Assembly (NCBI GenBank): GCA_976226885.1
Contig: OZ320316.1
Coordinates: forward strand, 39,618,001 to 39,682,000
Direction: 5' to 3'
DNA length: 64,000 nt
DNA from: Iphione sp. A-MEVVRFRX5
Taxonomy: Eukaryota
Position numbers and translations under genes: made by a program. The notes beneath the pieces are model-generated. The model was given only the letters and a program-made list of their open reading frames with translations, searched no databases and had not been told where the DNA came from. Within the stretch, counting starts at the first letter, position 1. The number at the start of each line of letters is the position of its first letter. Below, one piece after another: positions 9,501-55,800 of this stretch.

Positions 9501-10166
9501 TTTGATGAACTCCTTAATGGCATGGTGACAGAAATGTAACAGCTGGGATGAAAACAGGAAAAAATAACTGCATAAAGATAACAAAACCTAAATGGAGTTC
9601 TTTGTAATCTCACCGTTACATAATGCATGAAAATGAGTACCTTAATAAGGGTGATTGTCAAAGTTTGGCTGCAGTGGGAAGTCAAATCTGGCACTGCTTT
9701 ACCGCTACATCTATCATTCGACAGGAAACCGGAGTGGTGGCAAATGAATTTATCAAATCACTGTAGAGACAGCGCACGAGCAGTAATGGCCAACCTTCCA
9801 AAAAGTAACTAAAATCCAATTTAGCCACTTTGAGCCTGGCTGGTTCTGATGGACTCTCACGTTTCTGCTATCTCACAAATTCAGCGGCAGTGGAGAGTGA
9901 ATGCGCTGAATAATTTCGAGCTGGTTAAAGCTAAAAAGGCAGCCAATCAGACAAATGTATTTGGCGCTTGCCCAACGGATGATAGTCCGATGGGGGTTTG
10001 CTACGGATTCCATGACTCCTCATTTGCCCAACTCTCAATATCATTAAACCACGACTAGGGTGCGAAAAGAAACGGTCTAATGCCTTCAGAAATCCCATCC
10101 TGAGCTTTTCTGAGATGGAGTGCGTAAAAAAAAGCTTGCACTAGCGCCTTGTATTAGCGTCCAGTG

Positions 10167-10202
10167 ATCACGTGATACAATGTCCGCGAGCAGTGACGTC
10201 AC
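10167..10202. promoter_or_regulatory. Candidate regulatory element: palindromic E-box (ATCACGTGAT) and CRE (GTGACGTCAC)
   Basis: Two perfect 10-bp palindromes 16 nt apart, followed by a (GCT/GTT/GCG)n tract at about 10290-10335; no linked gene identified. Confidence 0.3.
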
Positions 10203-34159: not shown

Positions 34160-34288
34160 NNNNNNNNNNNNNNNNNNNNNNNNNNNNNNNNNNNNNNNNN
34201 NNNNNNNNNNNNNNNNNNNNNNNNNNNNNNNNNNNNNNNNNNNNNNNNNNNNNNNNNNNNNNNNNNNNNNNNNNNNNNNNNNNNNNNN
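34160..34288. other. Assembly gap (129 N)
   Basis: Run of N. Confidence 0.99.
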
Positions 34289-38176: not shown

Positions 38177-38180
38177 CAAT
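38177..38180. repeat. Target-site duplication CAAT (left copy)
   Basis: CAAT immediately precedes the left LTR and immediately follows the right LTR (46702-46705). Confidence 0.9.
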
Positions 38181-38235
38181 TGTAACACAATGTGACAAGT
38201 GACGCCTTTGGGACTGGAGTTGTTTTTAAAATTGG

Positions 38236-38241
38236 TTTATT
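38236..38241 (-). terminator. Candidate polyadenylation signal (AATAAA) near the end of the 3' LTR
   Basis: AATAAA on the element strand about 55 nt before the LTR end and downstream of the TATA box, as needed to define an R region. Confidence 0.55.
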
Positions 38242-38334
38242 GAAATAATATAGTTTGAAGAGCAGCACAGTTCCACCACCCAGCCACCGCAGAGAAGAGG
38301 GTCCCTAGCACTGTCTACTCAGGGGAAGGCCTAA

Positions 38335-38406
38335 CAGCATCATCAGCACAGCACGGCACAGCAGCACAGCATCACAGCACGGCACAGCAGCACAGCACAG
38401 CAGCAG
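38335..38406. repeat. (CAGCA)-type low-complexity tandem array inside the LTR; copy at 46265-46336
   Basis: Contains a 26-nt unit CACAGCACGGCACAGCAGCACAGCA(T/C) repeated twice (38347-38398) within CAGCA/CACAG monomers. Confidence 0.85.
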
Positions 38407-38771
38407 GACATCGGTCAGCTTGGGCAGCACTTCCCCTGGTAGCAGCAGTGGAGGGCCTCCCTCAGGGTAGAGTCAGGCTGGTGGTCTTGGTGGTTCGGCC
38501 GGTTGTTGTCGTCTCTGCTCCTCCCTCCAGTCTGTCTGAGGTGGATGGATCCCACTCCTTATATACAGGCTGAAGCTCCTCCTATCTTGTCAGCAGGAGT
38601 GGTTCCCATCCATCCGACATCTGTCCGGTCACGCGCTGCTCCTCCACCTTGATATCTGTAGGGAGATATCATAAAGTCCTCCCCCCTCCACCAGTCACAA
38701 TAATATACACCTTTTATTTGAAATAACAAATTAAAGTCTCAAATTCTTCTTTTGAGGGGCATTGTGTCACA

Positions 38772-38780
38772 CGCGCCCCC
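38772..38780 (-). promoter_or_regulatory. Candidate polypurine tract (GGGGGCGCG), atypical
   Basis: G-rich run directly abutting the 3' LTR start; short and interrupted by C, so assigned by position only. Confidence 0.4.
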
Positions 38781-38839
38781 AAACAGGCGAACAATGACCG
38801 ACTTGCGTCTGTGTTCGTCACAGCTCTTCTGAAGAGTCA

Positions 38840-40849
38840 TCATTGGGTGGGGGACGCCAGTGGTACTCCCAGCATACTGGTCTTTGGGTCCTGGAGACCC
38901 TCGTCCCCGGAGCGATGTTCGCTGCCCGTCTGGTGACCTTCCTTCCGCCGCTGGCCAGGAGTAAGCCTCCCGGCGATGCTAACCGCATCTACCTCCATCG
39001 TGGATCCAACGACCTCGTCAACTGCAACAGACCTATAGTCCTCCCCCTTTCCCATGACAGACCAGCGCTTCAAGTACCTTCTGCATGAACAATATATTAT
39101 CATCGGTATAAGAGAGCTAATTAAACCCATTCCTACTGTTGTTAGCAACATTGTCCACATGGGCCAAGTATGGTCCTTTGTCTTTTGGCTTTCCTTCAGC
39201 TTTCTTATGAGGTGGGGCATCGGAATCTCATTAATTTCCTTAAGCTCACTTGGGATTTCTAACTTGGTGATATTTGGTATCTCCTCAACAAAAGGAGCCC
39301 AAATGGTCTCTTTGGTGCGATTTCCTAGCTGGATCACATCAAAGGAATGTGGTGGCAACCTCAGCTCACTCTCTTTATAGAAATAAGGTAAAAGGGTGAT
39401 CTGTTCACTGGTAGCTGAACAAGACATATTAAGTTGAACTATAGCCATCGGAGGAAGTGTGATAAGACTGCGTTTGTATGGGGTGGTCTGCTGACAATGT
39501 ACAGTAAAGCTTTCAGCCATTTGCGAGGCAACAACCCATGTGCCATCTTGTATATAATAGGCTGCTGGTAAGATTGCATTTGGCTCTACTATGGCTTTAC
39601 AGTATTTGTCTGTCCGAGCTTGATGTTTTAAAAATAGGGCAGTTATACATAACTTGCTAAGGCTAATTGGTTGGACAGCCTTCTTTAGTGGACAGAATTT
39701 TCTTATTGGATGGACACAAGATGTCAGCTCAGCATCTTCTAAAGGAATGTATCTTGTCCTCTGGGGATCTACAGCTATGGCTTTTGCTTCTAAGTGGTAT
39801 CTAGCTACCATTGAGGGGTTTCCTTTTGGATTAGTTTGCCTGCTAAGTAATGGAAGTGGCAGATTTATGATTTCATACACTTCAAAATCCCCCTCTACGT
39901 CTAATAATGGGATATGTACAACAGTAATGATTTGGTTTGGTTTGATGATCGTGCTACATGTGAGAAATTGGTAATAATTCCAGATGCTTCTACGGGGGTC
40001 ATCTGGGAGCTTCAGGTGGTATGGCAATTTGCTTTGGATGTCAAGGAGAAGATGCTGCAAGCTATGAGGGCTTAAAATATTAGGTGATACTCTTCCTAAT
40101 GACAACATGTTTAGTTGTAATTCTAGGTGTGATAAGTATGCAACTGCTTGAATAATGGTTTGCCTCACATCGGTAACTACCATGTCCAGTTGCATATGTG
40201 ATGAAATGAGGTTTTCCAGCTCTGACACTCTCCCAACTACAGCGAGAGCTCTAGAGAGATTGGTGAGTGTACTGTCTATGCGATGTAAGTTTGTGATGAT
40301 CTCATTTATTGATTGTCTATTTTCCATAATTTCTGTATGGGATACGTTAAGAATGGTTAAGCTGTCTTCGACTGAATGAGCGATCTCCTGCTGGTTCTCC
40401 TCAAGAGTCTCAACATGTCTTGTTACCTTTCTCAACTCGTCTTCTGACACAGTGCCAGTGATAAAACTTAATGCTTGGCCTATTATGGGTATTAAGGAAC
40501 GCTTAGTGCGGCTAAGTGTTTTCAGTCCCGTAAAACTGTTTAGAATCTTTATCCTAATTCGGTCGAGGTTTTTGATTTCTGCCTTCAAAGGTGTAAATAA
40601 ATGGCGGAACTGCAGGCGATGTGGGGAATCATACCTTTTAACTACAGTGTCGCTCAGGGTTGTAACTTCGTCTACGTTTTGGGCTACTTTGTTCATGAAG
40701 TGGTCAAATGGTTTTAAGTCCACTATGAGAGAGACTAGCCATCTTGACCTGGTTGTAGTTACTACATTCACTCTTTTAAATACTACATTATTGTTAATAA
40801 CCAAAGCACTGGCTGTCATAAGGAAGGCTACAACTATCAGTCTGATCAT
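38840..40849 (-). CDS. env: Envelope glycoprotein, class I fusion type (baculovirus F / errantivirus Env-like), 669 aa
   Basis: Third ORF inside the LTRs; hydrophobic signal peptide MIRLIVVAFLMTASA; furin site RTKR (aa 114-117, nt 40499-40510) followed by hydrophobic SLIPIIGQALSFITG; heptad-like region; Cys-rich ectodomain; five N-x-S/T sequons seen; C-terminal TM (WTMLLTTVGMGLISSLIPMIIYC) and cytoplasmic tail. Family assignment is from motif layout, not a search. Confidence 0.88.
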   Translation of the reverse strand: MIRLIVVAFLMTASALVINNNVVFKRVNVVTTTRSRWLVSLIVDLKPFDHFMNKVAQNVDEVTTLSDTVVKRYDSPHRLQFRHLFTPLKAEIKNLDRIRIKILNSFTGLKTLSRTKRSLIPIIGQALSFITGTVSEDELRKVTRHVETLEENQQEIAHSVEDSLTILNVSHTEIMENRQSINEIITNLHRIDSTLTNLSRALAVVGRVSELENLISSHMQLDMVVTDVRQTIIQAVAYLSHLELQLNMLSLGRVSPNILSPHSLQHLLLDIQSKLPYHLKLPDDPRRSIWNYYQFLTCSTIIKPNQIITVVHIPLLDVEGDFEVYEIINLPLPLLSRQTNPKGNPSMVARYHLEAKAIAVDPQRTRYIPLEDAELTSCVHPIRKFCPLKKAVQPISLSKLCITALFLKHQARTDKYCKAIVEPNAILPAAYYIQDGTWVVASQMAESFTVHCQQTTPYKRSLITLPPMAIVQLNMSCSATSEQITLLPYFYKESELRLPPHSFDVIQLGNRTKETIWAPFVEEIPNITKLEIPSELKEINEIPMPHLIRKLKESQKTKDHTWPMWTMLLTTVGMGLISSLIPMIIYCSCRRYLKRWSVMGKGEDYRSVAVDEVVGSTMEVDAVSIAGRLTPGQRRKEGHQTGSEHRSGDEGLQDPKTSMLGVPLASPTQ

Positions 40850-40857
40850 AGCTTAAC

Positions 40858-40880
40858 CTGGAAATATATATACAGAATGA
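40858..40880 (-). promoter_or_regulatory. Predicted splice acceptor for env mRNA (TTTCCAG|G)
   Basis: T-rich tract ending TTTCCAG, 8 nt upstream of the env ATG, in the 83-nt pol-env spacer. Confidence 0.6.
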
Positions 40881-40932
40881 TTATTAACCCTTCCCATCCG
40901 TATTGTCGCCTGGTGAGACAACACGCTTACTT

Positions 40933-42087
40933 CTAATAGTCAACTGCTAACCTGAGAATGGCTTCAATGCCTTTCACGGCTCGGCGTAAGCTTTTGTTCT
41001 TACGGCTCGCAGTTGCTCGTACATTTTGTACCTGTACATCCATATCGTCAATGTCCGTTTGTCCATTTTCAGTCTCACTATCCGTGGGCATTTCTAAGTC
41101 AGTGGGTCTATTGTTGGGAATGTTATCTTCTTGTGTGCTAATGTCCCCCTCTGTATGTTCGTCGCTACTCTCCCTCTCCATTTGTTCTTTTCTTTCCTCC
41201 CTCTCTCTCATCCGCTTAGCTAATTCCATCAGAGGAATATCTTCTTCCTCTGCAGAATCCTCCCTCTCCTTACGATACCGTTTCGCTAATCTCGCTAGTG
41301 GTTCATCCATTTCAGAGTCATCTGTCTCGCTGTCATGTTCTGTCCCATCACTACTGTCGTCTGGTACAACATAGCGTGAGGGTCTGAGTACTCGATTTTG
41401 GGCAGTTTTGTTTGATGGTATCTCCCAATCTTCGATATTTGCTTTCCGAAGGTTAGTAGCATGAGCTTTCAAGGTCTTACCGGTTAACTGGTTCTTTATG
41501 ATAAACGTAATTGGAGTCTTTTTCTCGATGATTCTATAATAAGGAATCCAACGTTTGTCCAGTTTGCCCTGTCTTTGGTGATTTTTATAGTAGACGGGGT
41601 CTCCTAATTCGAGTTCAACATAGTTTTGACTTTGGAGTTTGTATTTTTCTTGTTTTTTCTTAGCTTTCTTGACACGATGGTAAACAGTTCTAAAAACCTT
41701 ATGTTGGTTTTCTAATGCTTTTCGATGATGTTCTTCTCCCATGTATTTCTGGTGTGGCTTCATGATGTTGTCAATGGGTAAAACCACATCACGATTGTAC
41801 AACAAGAAATATGGGGAGTACTTGGTGGTCTCGTTTACATTGAATCGAATAGCAGCTAAGGCCTGATTTAAGTGTAAGTCCCAAGTCTCTCGATTATCAT
41901 TTGCTAACTTGCTAAGGATGTCATGCAAGGTTCTATGTGATCTCTCGACTCTAGCGTTACCAGCTGGATTGTAAAAGGATGTTTTCACATGGTGTATATT
42001 GAGTTTCTGAAGTGTTTCCCTAACAATTTTGTTTTCATTTTCTGTTCCATTATCTGTTACTAATTCCAAAGGTGAGCCGAAACGTGG
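40933..42087 (-). CDS. pol: Pol, C-terminal part: integrase catalytic core, GPY/F-like region and acidic tail (continuation after a 1-nt frameshift)
   Basis: Reads PRFGSPLELVTDNG (second Asp), GNARVERSHRTL (Glu), KYSPYFLLY, KRWIPYY; joins the upstream IN frame if one base of the run at 42088-42093 is removed. Confidence 0.92.
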   Translation of the reverse strand, partial: PRFGSPLELVTDNGTENENKIVRETLQKLNIHHVKTSFYNPAGNARVERSHRTLHDILSKLANDNRETWDLHLNQALAAIRFNVNETTKYSPYFLLYNRDVVLPIDNIMKPHQKYMGEEHHRKALENQHKVFRTVYHRVKKAKKKQEKYKLQSQNYVELELGDPVYYKNHQRQGKLDKRWIPYYRIIEKKTPITFIIKNQLTGKTLKAHATNLRKANIEDWEIPSNKTAQNRVLRPSRYVVPDDSSDGTEHDSETDDSEMDEPLARLAKRYRKEREDSAEEEDIPLMELAKRMREREERKEQMERESSDEHTEGDISTQEDNIPNNRPTDLEMPTDSETENGQTDIDDMDVQVQNVRATASRKNKSLRRAVKGIEAILRLAVDY

Positions 42088-45031
42088 AAAAAATTTCTTC
42101 TAGCAACAGATGTGAAATAGTATCTGCCGTCTTATCTGGTGTGGCAAATGACTCTGGCCATCCGCTATACCAGTCTACGAAGCTTACGATATATTTGTTT
42201 CCTGATAAGGTCTTTTGATATGGACCGGAAAGGTCTAAGGAAACTTTAGCCCAGGGATACGGTGGAAAGTCCGTTTCCTGCATTGGCGGTCTAGCTTTAG
42301 TGAGGCTTCGTGTTTGGCAGGGCACACATTGGGTTACATAGGCATAAATTTCTTTATAGAGATTTGGCCAAAAATATTTTTGTCTGATTGTCTCATATGT
42401 CTTATCTATTCCCATGTGTCCATTTTTATCATGATATTGTTGTAGAATTTTGCTTCTAAGTTGTTTTGGAATACAGATCCTGACCAAAGGGTCATTATCT
42501 GGATCTGTCAGGAAGCATAATACACCATCTGCTCTTACTAGGTAACGGCGACTAATGTGTTTTGGGGCTTCTCCCTGTCGTAATTGTTCTACTATCTGTT
42601 TTATGTTTTCATCCTTGCTCTGCTCTTCCCTCATGTCTAAACCTTGGAAGTCTTCAGCTTCATCTACCTCTGTTTCATTTATCCCATCGTCTTGCTCGGC
42701 AGTGAACTGTGCAAACTCTCTGGGGTTAAATTTGTTGGAATTTATTGCTCCTATATTCAGTGTTCTATCATCTACATCCAGATCTAGTTCAGCATCCAGT
42801 AACTTAGGGCTATTCGGGGATCTTGACAATAGATCTGCTATGGAGTTTTCTTCTCCCTCTAAATATTCTATTTTACAGTTGTAACCAGCAATACTTAGGG
42901 CCCATAGTTGTATTTTCTTATTTTGCATAGGGGACTCCAGAAGGTGCTTCAGGGGTTTGTGATCAGTCCTAATTACAAAGGTAGCATTGTGGAGGAAGTA
43001 ATCTAACTTCTGCAGGCTGTAGTAGATCGCAAAACATTCACGTTCGATGGTAGACCAGCGGGATTGTGTATCGCTAAGTTTATGTGAAAGGAAATATATT
43101 GGTTTTTCATTCTTACAATTTTGAATGGGTGGAAATTCGTCATCGTCGTCACAAGCTTGCATTAGACAAGCGCCTATGCAGTCTTGAGAGGCATCTGTAT
43201 ATAGAACATACTCTTTCTTGGTGTCAGGGTAGGCTAAAATAGGGATTGTTGTCAAACTGTCCTTCAGAAAATTAAATGCTGTTTGGCATTCATCGGACCA
43301 CTTGAATTTTGAATACTTTTTTGTTAAGGCCACCAGTGGTTGTGCGATCTGGCTGAAATTTGGGATAAACCGTCGATACCAGGAACAAGCACCAATGAAA
43401 CCTCTTACTTCCTTTACACTACTGGGAGGTGCTAATTTTCTTATAGCTTCTACTTTGTGGGGGTCTGGCTTAACTCCATGCTCGTTAATCATGAAACCAA
43501 GGTAATTTGTTTCTTCTTGCATAAATTGACATTTTTTTAGCTTTAGTTTGAGGCCATGCTCACGTAATCTGTCAAAAACAGCCTGAATGTGTGTGATATG
43601 ACTGTCGAGGTCTGGACTATGTATCAGTACATCGTCTAAATATGCAAAAGCAAAATCTTCTTGTCCCTGCAGAACAGTTGTCATAAGTTCCTGGAATATG
43701 GCAGGGGCATTGGAAAGTCCGAAAGGCATCTTAATGTACTCATAAAGTCCCTTGTGACAGGCAAAGGCACACTTTTCTCTGTCGTCAGGATGTACCCTTA
43801 CTTGCCAATATCCGGACTTTAAATCTAAGCTTGTAAAGAATTTGGAATTTCCCAGTCCAGCCAAGATATCATCTATCAAAGGTAGTGGGTAGCTAATTGG
43901 TTTCGTGATCTTATTCAATAATCGAAAATCAGTGCAAAATCTTTTCGTTCCATCCTTCTTATCTACTATCACCACAGGGAAGCTCCAACTTGATCTGGAT
44001 CGTTGAATTACACCTGCCTGCAACATGTCTTCAACTGCCTTCTCTATAATTTCGCGCTTCATAAGTGGGGTGCGGTATGGCTTCAGTTTGATTGGGGCAT
44101 TGTCTCCTGTGTCTATTCTCATCTGTACTGTTTGTGTATGTCCTAGATCTAGATCAGTGGCTGCGAATAGATCTCTGTTCTTCTCAACTAGTTTAGTGAT
44201 TAGGGATCTGTGTTCTTGTGGTGCAGAAATATCTTCTAACTGAAGTGGTTCTTTTTGTGTGTTTTGAGGTGTGGTTGTCTGTGTTATTTCTGAGATCTCG
44301 TGTTCAACTAAGGGTTCAATTCGTCCTAGAATGCAGCCTCTTTTCACTTTGATTGTCTTGTTACTGCTGTTGATGATGTTAATAGGTAATTGATTTTTGT
44401 CATTTAGTGTGACCACAGAATTTGTAATAGCTAGTCCTGGTTGTTCGCTGATAAAGCCCTGTCCTATCTCTTTCAGCATATACTCTGCCATCCTGTCATC
44501 CTTAATTTTCACCCTTGCCTTGCAAAGCATCCCTGTCTGTGGTGCAAGCACCACTGTCTTCATTGCCCTTACCACTGTTGAAATGTGGATATCTTCATCA
44601 AGGTTCACATACTCATCATTGATGCGTAAACTACCCAAATCGAAGTACAACCTCACGCCATACTTTACCAGCCAGTCCCGTCCTAGTATAACATTTCTGT
44701 TAAGTCCGTCAACTATAATGAATTTCTGGGGAATATTCTGCCTTCCTATTGTAAACTCAATCTTTGCCTCTCCTACAACTTTTAATGGTGTTCCATTAGC
44801 AGATTGTAACTGGATAGATGTTGGTTTCAGTGGGGTCTTCTGTTTTAACCTCTTGTATACTTTTTTATGAAGGAGTGTCACCTCTGCACCTGTATCTACT
44901 AATGCTCTGTATTTCTCTTTTCCGAATTTAATAAGGCATGATGTGGGGTTTCCTGCAATATTAATTATATGGGTAATTCCCGTTCTCTCTTCACCATTGA
45001 CCCTATGGGAAGAGTATCTTAGTTTTCCTCT
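42050..45031 (-). CDS. pol: Pol, N-terminal part: aspartic protease, reverse transcriptase, RNase H, integrase zinc finger and first catalytic Asp
   Basis: Frame is open from 45031, upstream of the ORF-track GTG at 44881, and includes protease ALVDTGA and ILGRDW; RT LDLKSGYWQV, MPFGLSNAP, YLDD; RNase H YTDAS, ERECFAI, TDHKPL, ADLLSR; integrase HDKNGH...CVPC and SLDLSGP. The frame goes out of register at the homopolymer 42088-42093. Confidence 0.95.
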   Translation of the reverse strand, partial: RGKLRYSSHRVNGEERTGITHIINIAGNPTSCLIKFGKEKYRALVDTGAEVTLLHKKVYKRLKQKTPLKPTSIQLQSANGTPLKVVGEAKIEFTIGRQNIPQKFIIVDGLNRNVILGRDWLVKYGVRLYFDLGSLRINDEYVNLDEDIHISTVVRAMKTVVLAPQTGMLCKARVKIKDDRMAEYMLKEIGQGFISEQPGLAITNSVVTLNDKNQLPINIINSSNKTIKVKRGCILGRIEPLVEHEISEITQTTTPQNTQKEPLQLEDISAPQEHRSLITKLVEKNRDLFAATDLDLGHTQTVQMRIDTGDNAPIKLKPYRTPLMKREIIEKAVEDMLQAGVIQRSRSSWSFPVVIVDKKDGTKRFCTDFRLLNKITKPISYPLPLIDDILAGLGNSKFFTSLDLKSGYWQVRVHPDDREKCAFACHKGLYEYIKMPFGLSNAPAIFQELMTTVLQGQEDFAFAYLDDVLIHSPDLDSHITHIQAVFDRLREHGLKLKLKKCQFMQEETNYLGFMINEHGVKPDPHKVEAIRKLAPPSSVKEVRGFIGACSWYRRFIPNFSQIAQPLVALTKKYSKFKWSDECQTAFNFLKDSLTTIPILAYPDTKKEYVLYTDASQDCIGACLMQACDDDDEFPPIQNCKNEKPIYFLSHKLSDTQSRWSTIERECFAIYYSLQKLDYFLHNATFVIRTDHKPLKHLLESPMQNKKIQLWALSIAGYNCKIEYLEGEENSIADLLSRSPNSPKLLDAELDLDVDDRTLNIGAINSNKFNPREFAQFTAEQDDGINETEVDEAEDFQGLDMREEQSKDENIKQIVEQLRQGEAPKHISRRYLVRADGVLCFLTDPDNDPLVRICIPKQLRSKILQQYHDKNGHMGIDKTYETIRQKYFWPNLYKEIYAYVTQCVPCQTRSLTKARPPMQETDFPPYPWAKVSLDLSGPYQKTLSGNKYIVSFVDWYSGWPESFATPDKTADTISHLLLEEIFSTFRLTFGISNR
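44971..45028 (-). promoter_or_regulatory. Predicted -1 programmed ribosomal frameshift signal (gag-pol)
   Basis: G GAA AAC heptamer (45022-45028) directly before the gag TAA; 7-nt spacer; stem CTCTTCCCAT/ATGG(T)GAAGAG; gag and pol frames overlap only over about 45022-45031. Confidence 0.75.
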
Positions 45032-45924
45032 TCAATGAGGTTCACTGACTTCTTCAGCATAGGACAGTTCTTCTTCATGTGACCCTTCCCTTTACACTTG
45101 TGGCACTCCAACTGGGGGCAACTACTCTTGAAGTGGCCTGGCTGCTTACAGTACCAGCACCCTTCCTCACTCTTTGTCACCTCGACCTCTTGTACTCTGG
45201 CCTTGCACGGGCCCTGGTGATTTCGTCTACAGGTGCGGCATACCCGCTTCGGCCGCGTATAATCTACTTCCATTGGCTCTTCCTTACGTTCAGGCTTTGC
45301 ATATCCATATCCACTAAGGCCCCCCTTTAGATCTAGTTTCTTTCTGAGGTTTTGTTCCCGCATAGCTATTTTTATGGCCTCGGTTAAGTCCTTCGGATCT
45401 GCCCTTAACACTGACATTTTCATGCCAACGTGGCTGATGCCATCCACAAATATGTGTATGAGCTGGCTTTGTACGACAGCTTCTTTTTCCTTTCCAGGGA
45501 AGGCCTCCGTCGCTAACTCAATGACCCTCTCTCCGAATACCTGCACGTTCTCCCCTTCCTTCTGTTTAGCCTTCCTTAGGAGAGAGAAGGCATATTGACT
45601 ATCTGTTACTTCCGAAAATCGTTGAGCTAACTCTTTTTTTAGGTCCTTCCACTCTGCTCTGGGGTATGTGAGAAGATATCGATGAATAAAGTCCCCTGCT
45701 GGTCCTGCACTCGTTTGATAGGCCACCTTAGTGGTCGCTATCTCGTCTAAGTTTGCTAATAACTGACAGCGCTCTATAGCTCGTACCCACTCTTTGTATT
45801 TGCTAGGGGTGCCTGCAAATTTCTCTATGCTTTGTATGGCCCCCTGTTCCCTGAAAGCAGTGGACATACCATTCATGCTTCTGGTCAGAAGGTCGAATAG
45901 CTGCTTCAACTCTGGTCCTGCCAT
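45019..45924 (-). CDS. gag: Gag (capsid/nucleocapsid), 301 aa
   Basis: First ORF after the PBS with a strong start context (ACC ATG G); retrotransposon-Gag-like core (WVRAIE..., FVDGI); two CX2CX4HX4C knuckles (CWYCKQPGHFKSSC, CHKCKGKGHMKKNC) plus a variant CX2CX3HX3C. Confidence 0.93.
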   Translation of the reverse strand: MAGPELKQLFDLLTRSMNGMSTAFREQGAIQSIEKFAGTPSKYKEWVRAIERCQLLANLDEIATTKVAYQTSAGPAGDFIHRYLLTYPRAEWKDLKKELAQRFSEVTDSQYAFSLLRKAKQKEGENVQVFGERVIELATEAFPGKEKEAVVQSQLIHIFVDGISHVGMKMSVLRADPKDLTEAIKIAMREQNLRKKLDLKGGLSGYGYAKPERKEEPMEVDYTRPKRVCRTCRRNHQGPCKARVQEVEVTKSEEGCWYCKQPGHFKSSCPQLECHKCKGKGHMKKNCPMLKKSVNLIEEEN

Positions 45925-45939
45925 GGTACTAAGAAAAGG

Positions 45940-45948
45940 ACTTACCGG
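45940..45948 (-). promoter_or_regulatory. Predicted splice donor in the leader (CCG|GTAAGT)
   Basis: Consensus GTAAGT 5' splice site about 20 nt upstream of the gag ATG. Confidence 0.6.
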
Positions 45949-46077
45949 TTATGAAGATACACAGTCGGTCGCGATGATGGTTCTGCGGGTCGTACAGCAG
46001 CAGTACTTCTTTGCGTTGTGTCTGTCTTCCTTCGTCAGGAATTCAGCAAGCTGTAAATGTAATAGAGCTTTCTGGTT

Positions 46078-46095
46078 ATCCTGGTCACGGCACCA
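46078..46095 (-). promoter_or_regulatory. Primer-binding site complementary to the 3' end of tRNA-His(GUG)
   Basis: Minus strand reads TGGTGCCGTGACCAGGAT; the plus strand ATCCTGGTCACGGCACCA matches the 3' 18 nt (including CCA) of invertebrate-type tRNA-His as I recall it. It lies 15 nt inside the 5' LTR boundary. Confidence 0.85.
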
Positions 46096-46110
46096 AAAAG
46101 GTTAGTCACT

Positions 46111-46701
46111 TGTAACACAATGTGACAAGTGACGCCTTTGGGACTGGAGTTGTTTTTAAAATTGGTTTATTGAAATAATATAGTTTGAAGAGCAGCACAG
46201 TTCCACCACCCAGCCACCGCAGAGAAGAGGGTCCCTAGCACTGTCTACTCAGGGGAAGGCCTAACAGCATCATCAGCACAGCACGGCACAGCAGCACAGC
46301 ATCACAGCACGGCACAGCAGCACAGCACAGCAGCAGGACATCGGTCAGCTTGGGCAGCACTTCCCCTGGTAGCAGCAGTGGAGGGCCTCCCTCAGGGTAG
46401 AGTCAGGCTGGTGGTCTTGGTGGTTCGGCCGGTTGTTGTCGTCTCTGCTCCTCCCTCCAGTCTGTCTGAGGTGGATGGATCCCACTCCTTATATACAGGC
46501 TGAAGCTCCTCCTATCTTGTCAGCAGGAGTGGTTCCCATCCATCCGACATCTGTCCGGTCACGCGCTGCTCCTCCACCTTGATATCTGTAGGGAGATATC
46601 ATAAAGTCCTCCCCCCTCCACCAGTCACAATAATATACACCTTTTATTTGAAATAACAAATTAAAGTCTCAAATTCTTCTTTTGAGGGGCATTGTGTCAC
46701 A
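46111..46701 (-). repeat. 5' LTR (591 bp)
   Basis: Matches 38181-38771 base for base on visual comparison; ends form an imperfect 12-bp inverted repeat (plus strand TGTAACACAATG...CATTGTGTCACA); lies upstream of PBS and gag on the minus strand. Confidence 0.96.
46488..46495 (-). promoter_or_regulatory. Candidate LTR TATA box (TATATAAG)
   Basis: About 205 nt into the 5' LTR on the element strand; copy at 38558-38565. Confidence 0.55.
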
Positions 46702-46705
46702 CAAT
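46702..46705. repeat. Target-site duplication CAAT (right copy)
   Basis: Same 4-mer as 38177-38180, directly abutting the terminal ...CACA of the right LTR. Confidence 0.9.
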
Positions 46706-46731: not shown

Positions 46732-46870
46732 NNNNNNNNNNNNNNNNNNNNNNNNNNNNNNNNNNNNNNNNNNNNNNNNNNNNNNNNNNNNNNNNNNNNN
46801 NNNNNNNNNNNNNNNNNNNNNNNNNNNNNNNNNNNNNNNNNNNNNNNNNNNNNNNNNNNNNNNNNNNNNN
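46732..46870. other. Assembly gap (139 N)
   Basis: Run of N beginning 30 nt outside the 5' LTR. Confidence 0.99.
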
Positions 46871-49800
46871 TGGTGTGGCCAGGCTTGAATAGTGTCCACT
46901 TCACGACCACCGTAGCTGCGAGGGTGCTTCCAAGTGAACCAGCCACCACCGGCACCACCGTCAGCACCACCGTGCTGCTACCACTGGGATATTGTGAGAC
47001 ACTGAGCCAGCAACACATCCGCCCTGTCCAGCGTGCACCCTGAGTTGCCCCAGAAAGAAGCGTTCCAGCGTAACTGCCGGCTAACACGAACGTATAATAC
47101 ACCAATTACGTCCTTTTGAAAATGTAAATAGTTGCGCCGCCTGCCTGATTAAATGTGTTTTCGTGGAGTGATGAGGATAATTGCCGGCGTCCAGCCTGTG
47201 CCGTCTGGGCGGCCCAAGCCGGACACTGCGCGCCGCGCACTGCCGGACTTGGCCGGGCCGCAATTGGGCCGTGCTCACAGGGCTATTGTGGCCGGCCATG
47301 CCAGGCCCCTTGCAAGCCGGCCTCTGATGAGTACTAATCACTGTAATTTACTCCGTGCATAAAGAGGTCCCTTTTTGCGCAGGCGAAGCCTCACCCTTTA
47401 ACAACTAGGGTCACTGACACATTATGCAGGCACCATCCTGCCACCTTCCTACTAACCGCTGTTTTCTCCGCTTGTTTCACATTGGTCAGCTGCCGTCAAC
47501 CGGGGTGCAACACAATCACAAATAATCTGATAAGGGTAGGCCGCTCGAGATGATCAATCGGCTCCTGTTTGAGTCGGTGAAATTAGATCTCCTTCGTCTA
47601 CATCTCTACCTGGCCACTAACAATGTTTGAGTAGTATTGTGTTACAATCTTTGGGCAAACGGAATGTCAAATGGACAGACTCTCCTGAAATAATCAAAAA
47701 GTACTTAAAGTAGAAATGCACCTACATTGTTGTATATCTTTAAAGACAGCTGAATGAATGAATGATTGGGGTACCAAAGACATTTTGTCATTCTTTTACG
47801 TGATAGTCCCTTCAACCCCCAGGTTTTGTCCCAGATTTACTGTCCCTCTTGGGTGTGGCTGAATGAATCCAGACTGTGCGCAAGATGCACCGATTTGCGT
47901 GTTGTGGTGGACATTCCAGGCTAAAGCAATGGGTGATCGAGGGAACAAAGTAGGACAAAGTGGGAAGAGATGGACTGTCCCAATTGCCAGGGGGAGGAGC
48001 TACTCAGTGCGGGTGTCCGGGACATGAGCTGCTCTATAACAACGGGGGCGACAAGATGGATCGGCGTTATTGTGCTTATTGACCACTTAATCTAGTGTTG
48101 TCATGGCAAGGAGGCTGACCCGCGTCTCCTGGGTGGAGGCAGTTACTATGGCAACAATGGCGATGGTGTGAGACCAGGGTGAGGATGCGGACGGATCATC
48201 TGGACCCTGGAGGAAGATGGACGACAGTGACACCTCCAGGTGGCGCATCCCTCACCGGGGAGGGGAGGTTACTCCCCTTCAGGCTCCCAATACAGATTAA
48301 TCAGGGTGGGCGGCCGCGCCATTGCGTAAGGGGTCTCGCGGTGCGGCTGCCCGGTGACAGTTGCTGTTAATAATGCGTGGACAAATGGACTCCCCTGGAC
48401 CCCTCCTGTTAATGAATTGATCCTGCCGCGTCACCCCGGGTGGAGAATAACTGCAGCGTGTCCCCCCACTGCCTTTTGTATTGTCTGGCAGCAGGATTAA
48501 ATCACAACCCCTTGCAAGCGTCTCGTTAGCTTGCCATCCTGTGGATCCTTCGGGATCCAGTGACCACGGCTAGATCTATGTTCACCTGGTCGCCACAGAC
48601 ACACCTAATGGCCTCAGCCTCCACCAATTAATGGCTCCCCCGTGCCAGCATCCTCCCAATAGTTTTGTTTTTCCAATTATAATTGGCGAGTGGTGGGGAG
48701 ATCTACCAATTGTAAATCACTGCTAATTGGGACAACTGGTCGGCTTCATAACTCAACACCGAGTTATTGATAGTGAGAGCTTTATGGCTTGTTCTGCTGT
48801 CGTTGTCTTTATTGTGATAAATTGTCTGCTCTCTGCCGCCCGCCGAGCTGCTCGGACGGCGACCCGTGAGCAACTCAGTGCTAAAACACATTAAAACGTC
48901 TAGCAAATCACAACAAAGCAAATCCCTTATTAATTTCATATACAAGGAGGTTTACTACGTCTCCCAGAATAAAAAGGATTCCTCGCTGAAACAGTCCTTG
49001 CAATACACCTCAAAGTTAATTTGTGTACATGTACCTGTAGAAATCCAAAGGTTTAAATATCTAAAACCAAAGATGACAAATGGTGAGCACACAGTTTACG
49101 TCGCAAGCAGTTTTCGGAACTCCTATATTTGACTCTGTGCACCCCTGGGTTGAGAGCTCAGCGGCTAAAATGGATGGAGGGCTAGAACAGACAACAGATG
49201 AACAACCTCACAGCAAAATCAACCTCAGAGGAGAGACGTACAATACATGACAGTTTCACAGGAAATAAAGGAAAGGTCATGAAACCACAACATGGTATTA
49301 ACACACATCACGGATGTTATTTTTATAGTCCTAAACGTTAGACAGTGTCACCTATTTCAAATCCCCTGGCCAATAAGCGGTGAAGGTAAAATGTTCCACG
49401 CGTATGAGATTTGAGAATTCAGGGTGAAGATGTTAGGTCGAGAAAGAGACAGACATGCTGGTGTCCACATAACTGAGCATGACTCGACCTCAGAAGTCGA
49501 CCTAACTGTAACTAGCGGTTTCCTGCTGGTCGAGCCATCGGAGACCTACCTTTCCTTGTCTGTCCCCTACTGGCCTCGAGGCAAGAGGCCAGAAACTTTC
49601 TAAATCTCAGCATAACGTCCCCTTTGTTTGCAGGTCCAAGAGGTGAACGGAGGAAGAGGGGGAGTTATAAGGTTTCGCTGTGCTGTATAGCTTTCAATTC
49701 TGCACTAGTTTTCCCTTGTTACATTGATGGTGTTTCCATTATGGTTGTATGCGTATGCTGACGAGGATAAAACATATGATGAATATTGACGTCGATTAAA

Positions 49801-52800
49801 CTATGCTGTAGTGAGCGGGGGATTATTTGCTGTCCAGGCTATCGTTTTCTCACAACTGCCGCCCACCCCCCGAAGGCCGTAACTCACGCTGGCCGTCCGA
49901 TCAGTCAGACGTGGGCTTGCTCGTCGGATAAATGCCTCCTTTCTTCCAGGTGTTGGGTTTACGTTGGGCCAATGGTGAGCTATGCTACCTACCGAACACC
50001 GACCCCCTGCCCACTGAACCGACTGGCCGCCGGCCGGCAGCCCGCCTGTCCAGCCAGCCACACCCGCCGGGGACTCGGGCGCCGGTGGGCCCTTTGGCGC
50101 CCACAAGACGCAGCAGGTTACCGTCATTCCCTGGAGCGAGTGGCAAACTTTAGAGGCACAGGAATGTGCTATACTTCTCCCGAACGTAACCGCCGCCATT
50201 GTGTGCAAGGGCAGCTAAGAGAAATCATGGCCTATGGAATACGGTATAATCTTATTAGGCGTGCACGTACATGTCTGCACTTACGCACAGATGAAACTGC
50301 AACTAATGACACTGAAGCATTATATTTTCCCACAAGAACTTCGTAGCACTTTTATTTTTGATTGCCCTCCCATCCAAACCTTGCATGCAATTCTGGCAGA
50401 AACCATTTACGGCAATAACGGAAGTTTCTCTTGTTAATTTTTTTTACAACCACGGTCCAGGTGGACATTTATCTAGTGGCAGGTGTTAATGTGTTAGAAG
50501 TGACCCCAGGCTAGCCTGGAACAAAGATAGCACACACAGAACAGAACAAGGAAAAAAATAATTTACGGCGAATTTTATTTGATATAGATTTGTGTTCGAG
50601 AGTGTTCCACTGCCAAAGCCTTCTTTACTGTCAACATGCTATATGTGGTCCCTACCTCGGACTGGTGTCGACTTCCTGTCCCAAGGTACCCACAGCGTGC
50701 ATGCGTCCTTACCTGTAAGAACAAAAAAAAAGAGCAGAGTGAGAGGTCAGTAATTACATGTACAAAAAGTACACTCGACGCTTGCTATAACAGTCAATGG
50801 GAACTGGTGGACAAATGGATGAGTGCTTGCGCTGACCACAGGCACGCTCATCCGATGGGAGCAGGTGGTTGAATGGCCCAAGTGGACATTGTCGGGCGTG
50901 GGTTCATGACACAGCTTGAATGGAAGGGGTTGGGGGCAGGATGAGAAGGGCGGATGTAATGGTGACGAGGGAAGGTTGGCGCGATGGGAGTCAGACAGCA
51001 GGGGGGGGGGGGGGTTTGAACGTACGCAGAATGGCCAACGCTGAAGGACAACCACATACACATACGCACGCGCACACGCACACGCATGGAGTGTCTATAT
51101 CGGCACATGCATGCCATCCGTACGTACATCAAACACCGTGACACTATCAAACCTGTAGGAAGACCCGAGCGTCTGCTTTATTAAAGAGCAGCGGCCATTA
51201 CCCCATTACGTGGAAGGCCAGAAGCCAGGCCAATCAAAGCCAGTGCTTGCAGTGCAGCAAACCTGCCATGGCCTGACTCCACCAACATGCAGAACATAAA
51301 AATGTCCTTTTTAATATCGGGGGGTCAGCAGCAAAGTCCGCATCCACACTATCCGCGAATAAGTTAACTCGAAATACAGGTCTTTCCGCACCAATTTGAC
51401 TATAAATTTGATAGTTCTGCTGAAGGAGAGCTGTGATTTGTTTTAGAGTAGACAACAAAATGCTGTAATCTTTGGTACAAAGTGGCATGTATATTTACAT
51501 GACACAAAATTATCTTTAGGCTCTCCCGACAGAATTAGGGGGCGGCCAGACATGCTGGGTGTGGTTCCTATGAGACACATCTTGTCACGACAGGTGCCAT
51601 ACAATACATGTACATTTTGATAAAGAAACAGATCTGCAGGTCATTCATTATAGTTTTCGGGTCAAAAAGAACGTGACGTTTATGATAACAAATTTAATAT
51701 TCAGTGAGATGAACAAAGTGACAGTCAATGAAACGAAATGAAACAAATCATTAAAACGTGAAGACTGGTTGTTGCTCAAGAGGCTTTCAATGCATCTATG
51801 GGTTGTATAGGAATAACAGAATTACGTATATTACGCATGATGGCACCTTTCAATCACTGAAAAGAGTTCATTTACATGTACTGCGAGAGAGATATTAGCT
51901 TATGTGTTAACCCCGGTGGATAAAGCGAGGGCGATTAAGGTTGAATTAGTTTATCGTTAGCTATCCCTTGCAGACAGCTCTCCCTCTCAGATGGGAAAGA
52001 CTAGTCAAAGATAGCACATGCAGCAGAGCATTTCTTATAATTATCAGTGAGGAATATATGTCATACTCAGAAAAAAGTGAAAAGAGGACGACAACCGTGC
52101 ACGGGGCGATGAGAGGTATGGGCAGAAGATCGATTGAACTGATGCAACCAAACTTGATAGGACATTCAGATAATGGGGAGAAGGTTGAAACGGGTGGAAG
52201 GTGCGGGGTGGGGGATACAGTCACCCGTCCATCCCACCGTCCATCGAATCATGCCAAGTAATAAAACATGAGGCTACGATTTGCGCAATCAGCGACGCAA
52301 ATTTAGCATCAAATTCAATTATACAGGCCTAAGCCCTCAAAAATGCATCCGGCGGCCGCCGAGGACAGCGGTCAATGCCGACTGATTTGCCTAAATGGGC
52401 AAATCATCGGTGGCCACATAAACCCGGCGACCAAGTCGGGGTTTATGGTGCTGGTGCTGGCCTAATTAGAATTGGTGATGATTTCCTTGGTTCTAGCAAC
52501 CGCTCAACCATATTCTTATCTTATTACTGCGCACGGCCAACTTCAATTCCTGTTCAATAATCTTACCGTGCCTGATGCCCAATTGGGGCCCATTTGTTTG
52601 GACGTAATCTAGTTTGCATACATAACATCTACCCAAGCTGAGCCCAGAAATATCTGAGCAACAATCGATATATCCCTAATGGCATACATAATTGCAAAAG
52701 CTTGCGTTAATTCGGTGTTAATGTTTCAGGAACAGCAAGGGTTAGTAGGAAACTATGGACGTTTGGTGCATTTGCATAAGTCACAAAGCACATATCTCAA

Positions 52801-55800
52801 AAGCATCGCTTGCCTCGTATGGTAATTAGCAGCCATTTGTAAGTCTTTACATGTGGATAATCTTGGCTTTCAGTCAAAGCGCCGGTATTATGACCCAGGG
52901 TCAGCCATGCCTGTTCTTATCATCCTACCTAGTATCTGATATCACAGGTAGTATTGTATCAGATCTATATATCACACAGATATGTCTCGTTTCTATATGC
53001 CTACCACAGCTGTTGTAACTTTATCTTTCTCTCGATTACTTTTCGGTCGATATGCAAGAGACAGGCCACGTCACACGCGTATACTTACATCATGTCAGGG
53101 ATGGGCAAAGCTGCGTCTAATATCGTATAGATAAGTACGCGAGGAACACATATCCACAATGTACTGAGAATGTTGTTGGTGTGTTGCTAATGATATATTC
53201 ATTCTGTAAGAAAATGAGAAAGTTAAAAGCCTTCAAATCATACTAATTGGCAGCAGCACGCGGCCCGTGGGAGCAGTTAAAGGGGGCCCCACCCTTTTAG
53301 GCCGAGCCAAGCAGTAACTCAAGCTGCCAGAGCATCTCAGATCCTGACTGAGATAAACATGAAGCACATGTATATGGCAGGCCATGGCGGACACAGCCCA
53401 GGGTCCAGGTAGGTTCTGATTGAGCTGATAGGCCGGTAGAGGTGATGTCGTGCTAGCCCATTGTTCTCAACAAACATGGCAAGAGAAGCAGGGCTCGTAT
53501 TTGCTTTCACATGCATCACCTACCCCCAGCACCCACCCACCCACCCCCTCCCTCTGTCTCCTCCATTTTCCATTCCCTTTTCCCACTGGTCTGCTGGTGG
53601 CCCAAGGCTAGCATTACCAGCCACTCTCCCAACCCCCCCCCCCCCTCATGTCATTTGGACATGTGCTAGGACTAGCTGCTGCAGTAGCACAGCATGTCAG
53701 ACGGGTCAAGCGTGGAGGCCAGGTCAGGGGTCGGGGTCGGTGACCTGTTACACTGAGGTGGAGAACAGGTCATTTCCATGCAGCTGTTCAGTCAAGTCCA
53801 TGTTGTTTGTTTGAAAATGCTCGTGATGTCTTTGTCTACAACATGCTAAAATTTAGTCTTGCAAGTCATAGATGAACGAAAGGAATGGGACAGTTTTATC
53901 ATCGTGGGGGTCCAAATAGGGTGAAATCGTGAGCTGATCTTCCAGACCAGGCGAGAATACCGGGTTCATACAAAGGGTAATGGTGGCTTCGGGGCCTGAC
54001 GGACAGCCATCCACGTTTCCATTCAGTATCTTCCACGAGGCACAAGCTATACCATCACGCGGTATCATCTTCATGCAGGTCTTGGTGCACCTGCTAGGAT
54101 ATCATTTATTGGGTGTGGCTAGGTTGGTAACATACCACATCGTACTAGGGAAAAAAATCCCAGGATAATACATTCCGTATTCGTGATGTCAATGTTTTAT
54201 CAAAGTATGGCGTTGGGTCATTATGGATTATCCACTTCTCCGTGAATGCCATATTGAACGGAAAGTAAATGTAGTGTCTTTGATATCAAATACGCTTGTA
54301 CTATTGTTATTGTAAGGCACTCAATCACCTTTGTTTGCGCTAATACACTAAGCTTTCTTCATTTAACAAAATGTGGCCTTTAGAAAGTAACCTATATCCC
54401 ACTGACTGATAAGATGATATAAATGTAAGCTTAGTGTAGGCATATGTATACAAGAAGTTCCGGTAGATGTACCGTTTACTGTGGCATTGTGAAACTTGAG
54501 TGTGATACAATAGCTTGATCGGCAAGTACAAATGTATAGGAAAGCGGGGAGACAAATGTGTGTATCTCAAACATTTGGTCAGGTAACAAAACAAAAATGT
54601 GCGTGCATGTGTGTTAAGAAAACTGCCTCTGACTTTTTACATGAATAACGTATATATTACTTGGCTACATGGCCCATCCTGGCCATATCAGGGGAATCCA
54701 AAGCATGCATGCTTAGGGGAAACTTCCATCGTGAGAGAAGCTGATGGTCAACTGGCCAGGTCAGATGAGTAACTTCGCTGTAACCTTGGCGACCCCCACC
54801 CCTCCCCGCCCTTCCTCCATGCCCTCTGTATGACACGAACATGGTGTATCAGCCTGCCGTACACACGAGAGGGGTCAGTTTTCATGCGGCATTCCGTACC
54901 CCTCCACGTATGACGACGTTTCTTTTTCCCCTTTCATTAGGCAGGCAGTCAGTGATGCTTCCATGCGGCATCGCGTGATAAGTCAGATAAGCTCCAAGGA
55001 TGACGACATGTCATTTCTTGTTTCTATATCATCTTTATGACAGAGCGTGTGCTTTTTTCCTTATCACGGGAAGCAATGCGCTGAGTATAAAAACGCCTGC
55101 AATAATATGTACGTCTACGTAGTGCGTGGGTATAGGGAAAGGTTGGGGTCACTTTACCCATTTATCTGGTGATCTCAATCTGTTGTCTGTTCAGTGTTCA
55201 ACCGGCCGTACCTTGCCACGAAATTACCAACTAATAAGGCATATTAGGGCTACGTGCGGTTTAATGCTGTCTGTTCTTCTCGCCCGCCAGACGACGTCAT
55301 GATACCCCAGTCAGCACAATGGGCTTTGGTCTGGTACCCATGTTGCGTCCGTGTATCCAGTCACCCAACCGTCGCTTGCCCCTGAGGAGTCCCACGTATG
55401 GGACAGACATCACCTCTCTAGTATGCTTTAAGTATCTCGTCCGTTCGAGCGAACCTCACCCGGATAAACCGCAACTTGAGAAAGTTAAGCCTGTCCATCA
55501 CGGTGCGTTCGGGTTAACCGCCGGGCCCCCGATGTGTTTTGGGGACGAGTTGGTCACATTTTAATTCAGTGCACTATGGTGTGGTTTGTGGTTACACAAA
55601 GATGGCGAGTTATATAGCTACAAGGGTTTCAGCAGACGGTGGTCATAGTCGGATATCCAAACACAAAGAGCACTTTCTAGGCTCCGCCTTATCTTAAACC
55701 ACTGAAACGTGATTTACAACTCGAGTATGCTGGGCTTATTGAATATGGTGCAGATATTAACTTTTGACGGGCAAGGTAGACGACGTAGACATTTGACTGT

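What the first reader, a model, noticed from the sequence alone, without database searches (positions are those of the whole stretch)
38840..40849. Intact 669-aa class I fusion envelope with F-protein-like layout
Seen: signal peptide, about 100-aa N-terminal subunit ending RTKR, hydrophobic fusion-peptide-like segment, long heptad-like stretch, 'HIPLL...FEVYEIINLPLP' block, multiple Cys, TM and tail. Established: insect errantivirus Env is homologous to baculovirus F protein and is furin-activated. Inference: a functional fusogen that could mediate cell-to-cell or soma-to-germline transfer, and a candidate for host co-option.
Basis: partly seen in the sequence, partly recalled or inferred. Interest (0 to 1): 0.7.

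Follow-up and report, generated by a model that had tools for sequence, protein, structure and literature searches.

The report
Envelope gene of fresh retrotransposon insertion
This is the virus-like fusion (envelope) gene of a recently inserted jumping element of a kind already known from many invertebrate animals, not a gene taken over by the host.

Summary
The 669-aa ORF is real and lies on the minus strand (40849 to 38840). It is an F-type class I fusion protein: Pfam Baculo_F above cut-off, predicted fold like baculovirus and pneumovirus F, furin site kept in 126 of 161 relatives, trimeric coiled coil modelled. It is not a lone gene. It is the env of an 8,521-nt Ty3/gypsy provirus (38181-46701) with two identical 591-nt LTRs, a 4-nt target duplication, gag, pol and a tRNA-His primer site. 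Pol structure and primer site match the 'ancient errantiviruses' of molluscs and annelids (PMC13524379), not the insect ones. Pol is frameshifted in the integrase core as assembled, so this copy looks non-autonomous. An intact env is expected in so young an insertion, so nothing supports host co-option. Fusion activity and soma-to-germline spread are inferred by analogy only. The host is not identified. If it is a lancelet or echinoderm, where the published survey found no intact env-carrying element, this would extend the known host range. Verdict: new member of a known kind.

The parts
38840..40849 (-). env ORF, 669 aa, F-type class I fusion glycoprotein (P0001)
40805..40849 (-). signal peptide, residues 1-15 (cleavage point by eye)
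   Evidence: hydropathy
40499..40804 (-). N-terminal (F2-like) subunit, residues 16-117, without Cys
   Evidence: no Cys in 136 of 150 relatives
40499..40510 (-). furin-type site RTKR, residues 114-117
   Evidence: R-x-[KR]-R in 126 of 161 relatives covering it
40448..40498 (-). fusion-peptide-like segment, residues 118-134
   Evidence: mean KD 1.5; G124 in 147 of 161 and G132 in 154 of 162 relatives; weak alignment to the same segment of PDB 9w4d
40100..40444 (-). HR1-type long helices, residues 136-250; core of the modelled trimer
39086..39163 (-). transmembrane segment, about residues 563-588, followed by a tail with a Cys pair and a YxxPhi motif at 605
   Evidence: tail motifs are not conserved
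46111..46701 (-). 5' LTR, 591 nt, TG...CA, TATA-like box at 46495, AATAAA at 46171, short 5/13-nt tandem repeat
38181..38771 (-). 3' LTR, 591 nt, identical to the 5' LTR
   Evidence: 0 mismatches
38177..38180 (.). target-site duplication CAAT, left copy
46702..46705 (.). target-site duplication CAAT, right copy
46084..46095 (-). primer-binding site, exact complement of the His_GUG 12-mer tabulated in PMC13524379, 15 nt from the LTR end
38772..38780 (-). short, imperfect G-rich polypurine-tract candidate
   Evidence: sequence
45019..45924 (-). gag, 301 aa, weak capsid matches and CCHC knuckles
42100..45031 (-). pol, upstream piece: protease, RT, RNase H, 'mini' domain, integrase zinc finger and start of the core
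40933..42099 (-). pol, downstream piece in another frame: rest of the integrase core and an acidic tail; no chromodomain hit
42080..42100 (-). frameshift in the integrase core (real lesion or assembly error)
   Evidence: 89 of 120 pol relatives match both sides, in two frames, as one protein
44988..45028 (-). candidate gag-pol ribosomal frameshift signal: heptamer just before the gag stop, hairpin 7 nt downstream (inferred)
   Evidence: hairpin z only -1.7 against mononucleotide shuffles
45940..45948 (-). candidate splice donor upstream of the gag ATG (inferred)
   Evidence: the only one of 17 GTRAG sites with G before and T after
40857..40870 (-). candidate splice acceptor 8 nt before the env ATG (inferred; an alternative lies at 40909)
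   Evidence: it failed my pyrimidine filter, the 40909 site passed

Best explanation
The ORF is the F-type env of a very recently integrated Ty3/gypsy LTR retroelement of the non-insect 'ancient errantivirus' kind, serving the element's spread and not the host. Shown here: provirus anatomy, F-family homology and fold, family-wide conservation of the cleavage site, fusion-peptide glycines and six cysteines. Inferred: env is translated from a spliced subgenomic RNA; the protein enters the ER by its signal peptide, is N-glycosylated (5 sequons), trimerises and is cut by a furin-type protease after R117; the freed fusion peptide inserts in a target membrane, HR1 extends into a coiled coil of about 90 residues and the membrane-proximal helix folds back, fusing the particle with a new cell, most likely to reach germ cells from neighbouring somatic cells as in Drosophila. 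The two subunits would be held non-covalently, as the small subunit has no Cys. As assembled this copy cannot make a full integrase, so it would need Pol from a sister copy, while still able to supply Gag and Env.
For: Provirus: LTRs 591 of 591 identical, TG..CA ends, CAAT duplication, His primer site; domain order PR-RT-RH-IN then env. Env: PF12259 above cut-off; PDB 9w4c/9w4d 'fusion protein' E 2e-5 alone and 6e-12 as profile; best viral fold match a nucleopolyhedrovirus envelope fusion protein, E 1e-22; RSV F E 2e-9 and Z 10.8, 381 residues, rmsd 5.1. Furin motif 126 of 161, six Cys each in 94% or more of covering relatives. Trimer of residues 136-465: score 0.55, best of 3 controls 0.00, runs agree in at least 41% of contacts, pLDDT at least 63; the mark was reached by 20 of 30 solved pairs and 1 of 23 single chains (animals 7 of 16), and a pass may come from memory of solved F trimers. 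Bridge: RNase H then three helices and three short strands, as described for ancient errantiviruses. His-primed rows in the survey: 16 of 17 are ENV_F in annelids, molluscs and barnacles; 13 of 17 have the site 8-21 nt off the LTR. Spliced env-F RNA in insect elements (PMC12992720 passages).
Against: No expression or fusion data. The model is middling (mean pLDDT 70.3, pTM 0.58, under 50 at 156-202) and Foldseek TM-scores are only 0.25-0.47 for the top rows; unrelated helical proteins reach Z 9.3. The nearest splice acceptor failed my own filter. No close copy was found (best env 41% among full-length hits, best RT/RNase H 70.6%), so copy number and dN/dS are unknown. The survey itself says the route of transmission is unknown outside Drosophila. 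I could not place the element in the survey's tree.
Confidence: 0.85

Rival explanations
1. Host co-option: the env is kept by the host as a fusogen or a restriction factor, like Iris or syncytins.
For: env is open while pol is broken.
Against: Full proviral context, identical LTRs, intact target duplication; an open env is expected without selection (0.41-0.80); gag is open too and pol has only one break in 4.1 kb; Iris is at least 25 million years old and lacks the cleavage site (PMC1262188 abstract), while this one keeps it.
Confidence: 0.04
2. Env in this lineage is already non-functional cargo; it looks whole only because the copy is young, and the element spreads inside germ cells.
For: Youth alone explains the open frame; insect lineages lost env-F repeatedly.
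Against: The protein keeps every family-conserved feature tested while 59% or more diverged from full-length relatives; against L001 codon positions 1, 2, 3 are 51, 70 and 30% identical and four-fold sites 10 of 49 (protein-guided alignment favours positions 1 and 2), which points to long selection on the protein.
Confidence: 0.1
3. Env is functional but its main role is infection between individuals or species through water, and the element entered this host recently by horizontal transfer. Differs from the best explanation only in route.
For: RT/RNase H 64-69% identical to mollusc-associated relatives while the flanks, by recalled composition only, may be non-molluscan; no second copy or remnant in the window.
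Against: The query is a long branch (rank 114 of 121; median 66.3% to relatives against 70.8% among them), which fits old vertical divergence equally well; the survey argues for mostly vertical descent; host unknown.
Confidence: 0.15
4. The perfect LTR identity, the pol frameshift or both are assembly artefacts; the true copy may be older, or fully intact. Compatible with the best explanation on what the gene is.
For: Draft assembly with N gaps, one starting 30 nt beyond the 5' LTR (46732-46870); a single frameshift in a copy with no LTR difference is unusual.
Against: Matching target duplication on both sides; gag, env and the rest of pol carry no stop; a lesion made during reverse transcription would give the same picture.
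Confidence: 0.3

Closest known systems
'Ancient errantiviruses' with ENV_F and His_GUG primer site, RT clade G of Chary and Hayashi (PMC13524379), e.g. Csin_4, Ffra_1, Hhip_3, Mqua_1, Himp_10/11
   Same: gag-pol-env order in LTRs, F-type env with furin site and fusion peptide, RNase H plus mini domain, His primer site offset from the LTR.
   Different: LTR start-to-start spacing is 7,930 nt, against 8,254-11,268 in the 17 His_GUG rows found (my arithmetic; the file's total for this primer is 23, so 6 rows were not seen); pol is frameshifted, so it would not pass their 'intact' rule; clade assignment is inferred from features, not from a tree.
Drosophila errantiviruses (gypsy, ZAM, Idefix; insect ERV Env-F)
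   Same: Env-F layout: signal peptide, furin site, fusion peptide, cysteines, TM, tail; probably a spliced env RNA.
   Different: Insect elements carry a duplicated pseudo-RNase H and mostly Ser, Lys or Leu primers; here a mini domain and a His primer. The env ATG and signal peptide lie wholly in the last exon.
Baculovirus F (Ld130 type; Pfam PF12259; PDB 9w4c/9w4d 'fusion protein', organism not shown by the tool)
   Same: Profile and fold homology, cleavage site and fusion peptide.
   Different: 12-16% identity in the structural alignments; carried by a retroelement; no Cys in the small subunit.
Pneumovirus and paramyxovirus F (RSV, hMPV, NDV, PIV5)
   Same: Head-and-stalk fold aligned over about 380 residues.
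Domesticated env genes (Drosophila Iris; syncytins recalled)
   Same: Iris is from the same F-type env family.
   Different: Those are old fixed host genes; this is inside a fresh provirus and keeps its cleavage site.

Membership tests
Errantivirus (operational: env-carrying Ty3/gypsy, PMC13524379) | LTRs flanking gag, pol, env in that order | tested here: met
Errantivirus (operational: env-carrying Ty3/gypsy, PMC13524379) | Ty3/gypsy pol order PR-RT-RNase H-IN | tested here: met
Errantivirus (operational: env-carrying Ty3/gypsy, PMC13524379) | env of F or gB type | tested here: met
   F type:
Errantivirus (operational: env-carrying Ty3/gypsy, PMC13524379) | classification by GyDB profiles or RT tree with reference elements | not testable with these tools
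   no reference set on hand; one search has no outgroup
Intact errantivirus copy (survey's inclusion rule) | RT and integrase in a continuous ORF | tested here: not met
   frameshift at 42.08-42.10 kb; rule read
Intact errantivirus copy (survey's inclusion rule) | further near-identical copies in the genome | not testable with these tools
   only the 64-kb window; none inside it
'Ancient errantivirus' group | RNase H followed by a mini domain (N-terminal helices, three small strands) | tested here: met
   H226-255, E256-258, E264-268, E275-279, pLDDT blocks 85-98; definition; matched by secondary-structure pattern, figure not seen
'Ancient errantivirus' group | placement in the ancient clade of the RT/connection tree | tested here: inconclusive
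   named relatives are mollusc-associated and the His primer matches clade G rows, but no tree with the survey's sequences
Insect errantivirus group | duplicated pseudo-RNase H (five strands) after RNase H | tested here: not met
Insect errantivirus group | primer mostly tRNA-Ser, -Lys or -Leu | tested here: not met
   His; a tendency, not an absolute rule
F-type class I fusion protein | Pfam Baculo_F above gathering score | tested here: met
   34.8 vs 24.1 bits
F-type class I fusion protein | basic cleavage site followed by a hydrophobic fusion peptide | tested here: met
F-type class I fusion protein | homotrimer with central HR1 coiled coil | tested here: met
   model only: 0.55 vs best control 0.00, heptad contacts 139-226; may reflect likeness to solved trimers
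F-type class I fusion protein | signal peptide and single C-terminal TM anchor | tested here: met
   hydropathy and model
F-type class I fusion protein | cleavage and membrane fusion in cells | not testable with these tools
   needs an experiment
Paramyxo/pneumovirus-style F | disulfide between the two subunits (recalled feature) | tested here: not met
   no Cys in residues 16-117; none in 136 of 150 relatives
Domesticated env (Iris, syncytin type) | old insertion, surrounding provirus decayed | tested here: not met
Domesticated env (Iris, syncytin type) | orthologous fixed locus under selection across species, host expression | not testable with these tools
   no eukaryotic genome collection or expression data

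The most novel reading that the evidence does not exclude
The host is an invertebrate deuterostome, most likely a lancelet, where the published survey counted no POL-ENV element in 4 of 4 genomes (and no intact one in echinoderms). This would then be a still-active, env-bearing infectious retroelement in the chordate stem lineage, whose nearest known kin are mollusc and annelid elements, implying either cross-phylum infection in the sea or retention since the bilaterian ancestor. The host guess rests only on flank composition (49% GC, CpG o/e 0.72-0.75, TACATGTA 20 times against about 1.5 expected) and on my recollection of which genomes look like that.
Probability: 0.35. Interest if true: 0.6.

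Novelty: new member of a known kind. Interest (0 to 1): 0.3.

Why it matters
F-type env genes on Ty3/gypsy elements across invertebrate phyla are published (1,512 elements, PMC13524379), so the gene type is not a surprise. The value of this copy is practical: a very young insertion with an unbroken, divergent Env-F (41% or less to full-length relatives) is a good natural substrate for the open question of whether non-insect errantivirus Env proteins really fuse membranes, which the survey leaves unanswered. The Cys-free small subunit and an odd seventh Cys are a family feature worth a structural look. If the host is a lancelet or echinoderm it would fill a reported gap in host range next to the vertebrates.

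Tried and rejected
Host identification failed. 0 of 77 flank ORFs of 95 aa or more hit Pfam at E<=0.01; shorter ORFs were not scanned. A motif scan for homeobox, zinc-finger and similar exons gave 4 unconvincing hits; 81 candidate exons from a crude splice scan showed nothing recognisable by eye. Rfam: none at gathering score, one weak lncRNA match at E 0.086, taken as chance; no tRNA. Literature listings for TACATGTA gave nothing on animal genome signatures. Listings for env-carrying gypsy elements in amphioxus or lancelets showed no such report; this covers only the open library. Four short env motifs were not found in the survey's alignment supplement (long cells are cut there, so this is no evidence). 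The survey's figures and GitHub files could not be seen; they bear on clade placement and on whether this element is already catalogued. No paper on PDB 9w4c/9w4d turned up. The prokaryotic genome scan gave 1 relative of 3 pattern matches, on a 942-nt contig with no context. Cluster membership and source names of the env relatives stayed unchecked; the viral and metagenome contig collections stayed unchecked. Spliced gag-pol from the three GTRAG donors inside gag that I tested to the acceptor after the gag stop is out of frame in 3 of 3, so I prefer ribosomal frameshifting. A programmed frameshift in integrase is unlikely, as 89 of 120 relatives run through as one protein. The RT tree has weak support near the query and few host labels, so no transfer claim is drawn from it. 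dN/dS could not be computed: no close copy.

Full report
Observation. The ORF exists at 38840-40849 on the minus strand, 669 aa from ATG to stop. All listed features check out: hydrophobic N-terminus, the single R-x-x-R of the protein at 114-117, a hydrophobic segment after it, long helices at 136-250, the HIPLL block at 312-333, seven ectodomain Cys plus two at the membrane, a TM segment near 563-588 and a tail of about 80 aa. There are five N-glycosylation sequons; N168 is kept in 137 of 166 relatives.

What the protein is. It scores above the curated cut-off for Pfam Baculo_F (34.8 vs 24.1 bits) and matches PDB 9w4c/9w4d 'fusion protein' (E 2e-5 alone, 6e-12 as a 29-sequence profile). The AlphaFold2 model (mean pLDDT 70.3, pTM 0.58) is closest to baculovirus F among viral models (E 1e-22) and to RSV F among solved structures (E 2e-9; Z 10.8 over 381 residues at rmsd 5.1, the top four rows all pneumovirus F). 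TM-scores are modest and unrelated helical proteins reach Z 9.3, so the sequence evidence carries much of the weight. The atlas gave Baculo_F clusters at 0.96-0.97 with a low recognition value of 1619. Three copies of residues 136-465 folded as a trimer with heptad contacts from 139 to 226: score 0.55, best of 3 controls 0.00, agreement at least 41%, pLDDT at least 63; 20 of 30 solved pairs and 1 of 23 single chains reach that mark, and the pass may come from memory of solved F trimers. The family is large: 2,296 representatives at E<=0.001. Of 173 relatives aligned, 161 cover the cleavage site and 126 have R-x-[KR]-R there (background 0.0003 per position); six F1 cysteines are kept in 94% or more; C298 in 136 of 173; and 136 of 150 have no Cys in the small subunit. 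So, unlike paramyxo- and pneumovirus F (recalled), the subunits cannot be disulfide-linked.

Context. The gene is the third ORF of an 8,521-nt LTR element on the minus strand, 38181-46701. The LTRs are 591 nt, begin TG, end CA and are identical; CAAT is duplicated on both sides. Gag (301 aa, CCHC) is followed by pol with protease, RT, RNase H and integrase in Ty3/gypsy order. The primer site is the exact complement of the His_GUG 12-mer tabulated in PMC13524379 and lies 15 nt from the LTR. Pol changes frame at about 42.08-42.10 kb inside the integrase core; 89 of 120 relatives match both sides as one protein. As assembled the copy is therefore non-autonomous; an assembly error is not excluded, and an N gap begins 30 nt beyond the 5' LTR. 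Gag and pol frames overlap by only 13 nt, with a heptamer before the gag stop and a weak hairpin 7 nt later, which suggests ribosomal frameshifting (inferred). A strong donor before the gag ATG and acceptors at 40857 or 40909 suggest a spliced env RNA (inferred), as for insect env-F (PMC12992720, passages only).

Which group. From PMC13524379 I read the abstract, sections 5, 6, 7, 14, 15, the first part of the discussion, searched passages, part 1 of 34 of supplementary file 1, part 16 of 17 of file 6, and term searches in the supplements; no figures. It reports 1,512 env-carrying Ty3/gypsy elements across invertebrates and separates insect elements (duplicated pseudo-RNase H) from 'ancient' ones (RNase H plus a mini domain). 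The folded bridge here shows RNase H, then three helices and three short strands: the ancient type. Of 17 rows labelled His_GUG, 16 are ENV_F elements of annelids (4), molluscs (10) and barnacles (2), and 13 have the site 8-21 nt from the LTR; six of these seen in the clade table are all RT clade G. None has this element's LTR spacing of 7,930 nt; the file's total for the primer is 23, so six rows were not seen. Named pol relatives are from Magallana, Haliotis and Ca. Thiodiazotropha MAGs (clam symbionts, recalled; probably host DNA), and a gag relative is from Mytilus. RT/RNase H identity is at most 70.6%, median 66.3% over 120 relatives, and the query is a long branch. Four of 35 env hits share an exact contig length with a pol hit, indirect evidence that the env-pol link is family-wide.

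Co-option. Nothing supports it. With 0 of 591 LTR differences, the upper age bound leaves an unselected 669-codon frame open with probability 0.41-0.80. Selection is visible at the family level instead: conserved motifs and saturated third codon positions against L001 (30% vs 51% and 70%, with the caveat that the alignment is protein-guided). The domesticated relative Iris is at least 25 million years old and lacks the cleavage site (PMC1262188, abstract only).

Mechanism. Most likely a furin-activated trimeric fusogen on the element's particles that lets them enter other cells, probably germ cells from neighbouring soma. Anatomy, homology, fold and conservation are shown; splicing, cleavage, fusion and route are inferred, and the survey states that the route is unknown outside Drosophila.

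Host. Not identified. The flanks gave no coding hit in the scans run, are 49% GC with CpG o/e 0.72-0.75 and hold TACATGTA 20 times (40 vs 3.0 expected over both strands), none in the element. From memory this suits a marine invertebrate and lancelets in particular, but several other phyla share the motif; this is a lead, not a test. It matters because the survey lists 0 POL-ENV for 4 of 4 cephalochordates and no intact element in echinoderms, though its final rule would drop a frameshifted copy like this one. Searches for a lancelet report found none in the listings.

Verdict. Observation confirmed; interpretation partly supported; new member of a known kind; interest 0.3, about 0.6 if the host proves to be a lancelet or echinoderm (probability about 0.35).

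Noticed in passing
window 42080-42100 (-): Single frameshift in the integrase core of a provirus whose LTRs are identical; real lesion or assembly error.
   Followed up: partly
window 44988-45031 (-): Gag and pol frames overlap by 13 nt with a slippery-like heptamer and a weak hairpin 7 nt downstream; 1 of 120 pol relatives is fused to gag-like sequence.
   Followed up: partly
window 39956-39958 (-), env residue 298: Odd number of ectodomain cysteines (7 in 80 of 127 full-length relatives); C298 has no obvious partner and the small subunit has none. Possible free thiol or inter-chain bond.
   Followed up: partly
window 46235-46341 (-), repeated in the 3' LTR: Four upstream ATGs (uORFs of 9-22 codons) in the LTR leader, overlapping a 5/13-nt tandem repeat, after the TATA-like box; the R region appears to be about 300 nt long.
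   Followed up: partly
window 46096-46110 (-): 15-nt spacer between the 5' LTR and the primer site; similar offsets in 13 of 17 His-primed elements of the survey.
   Followed up: yes
window 40933-41400 (-): Long acidic tail on integrase without a chromodomain hit.
   Followed up: no
window 1-38176 and 46871-64000: About 55 kb with no recognised gene or repeat, 49% GC, strongly enriched in the palindrome TACATGTA; looks like a regulatory gene desert or very large intron.
   Followed up: partly
window 9940-10340: Promoter-like patch seen by eye: CCAAT-like and CRE-like motifs followed by a short GC-rich trinucleotide run.
   Followed up: no
L001:35-907; P0182, P0188, P0198, P0215, P0264, P0288: Env and pol relatives are deposited under bacterial MAG names, probably animal host DNA binned into symbiont genomes.
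   Followed up: no
window 34160-34288 and 46732-46870: Two assembly gaps, one 30 nt from the element's 5' end.
   Followed up: no
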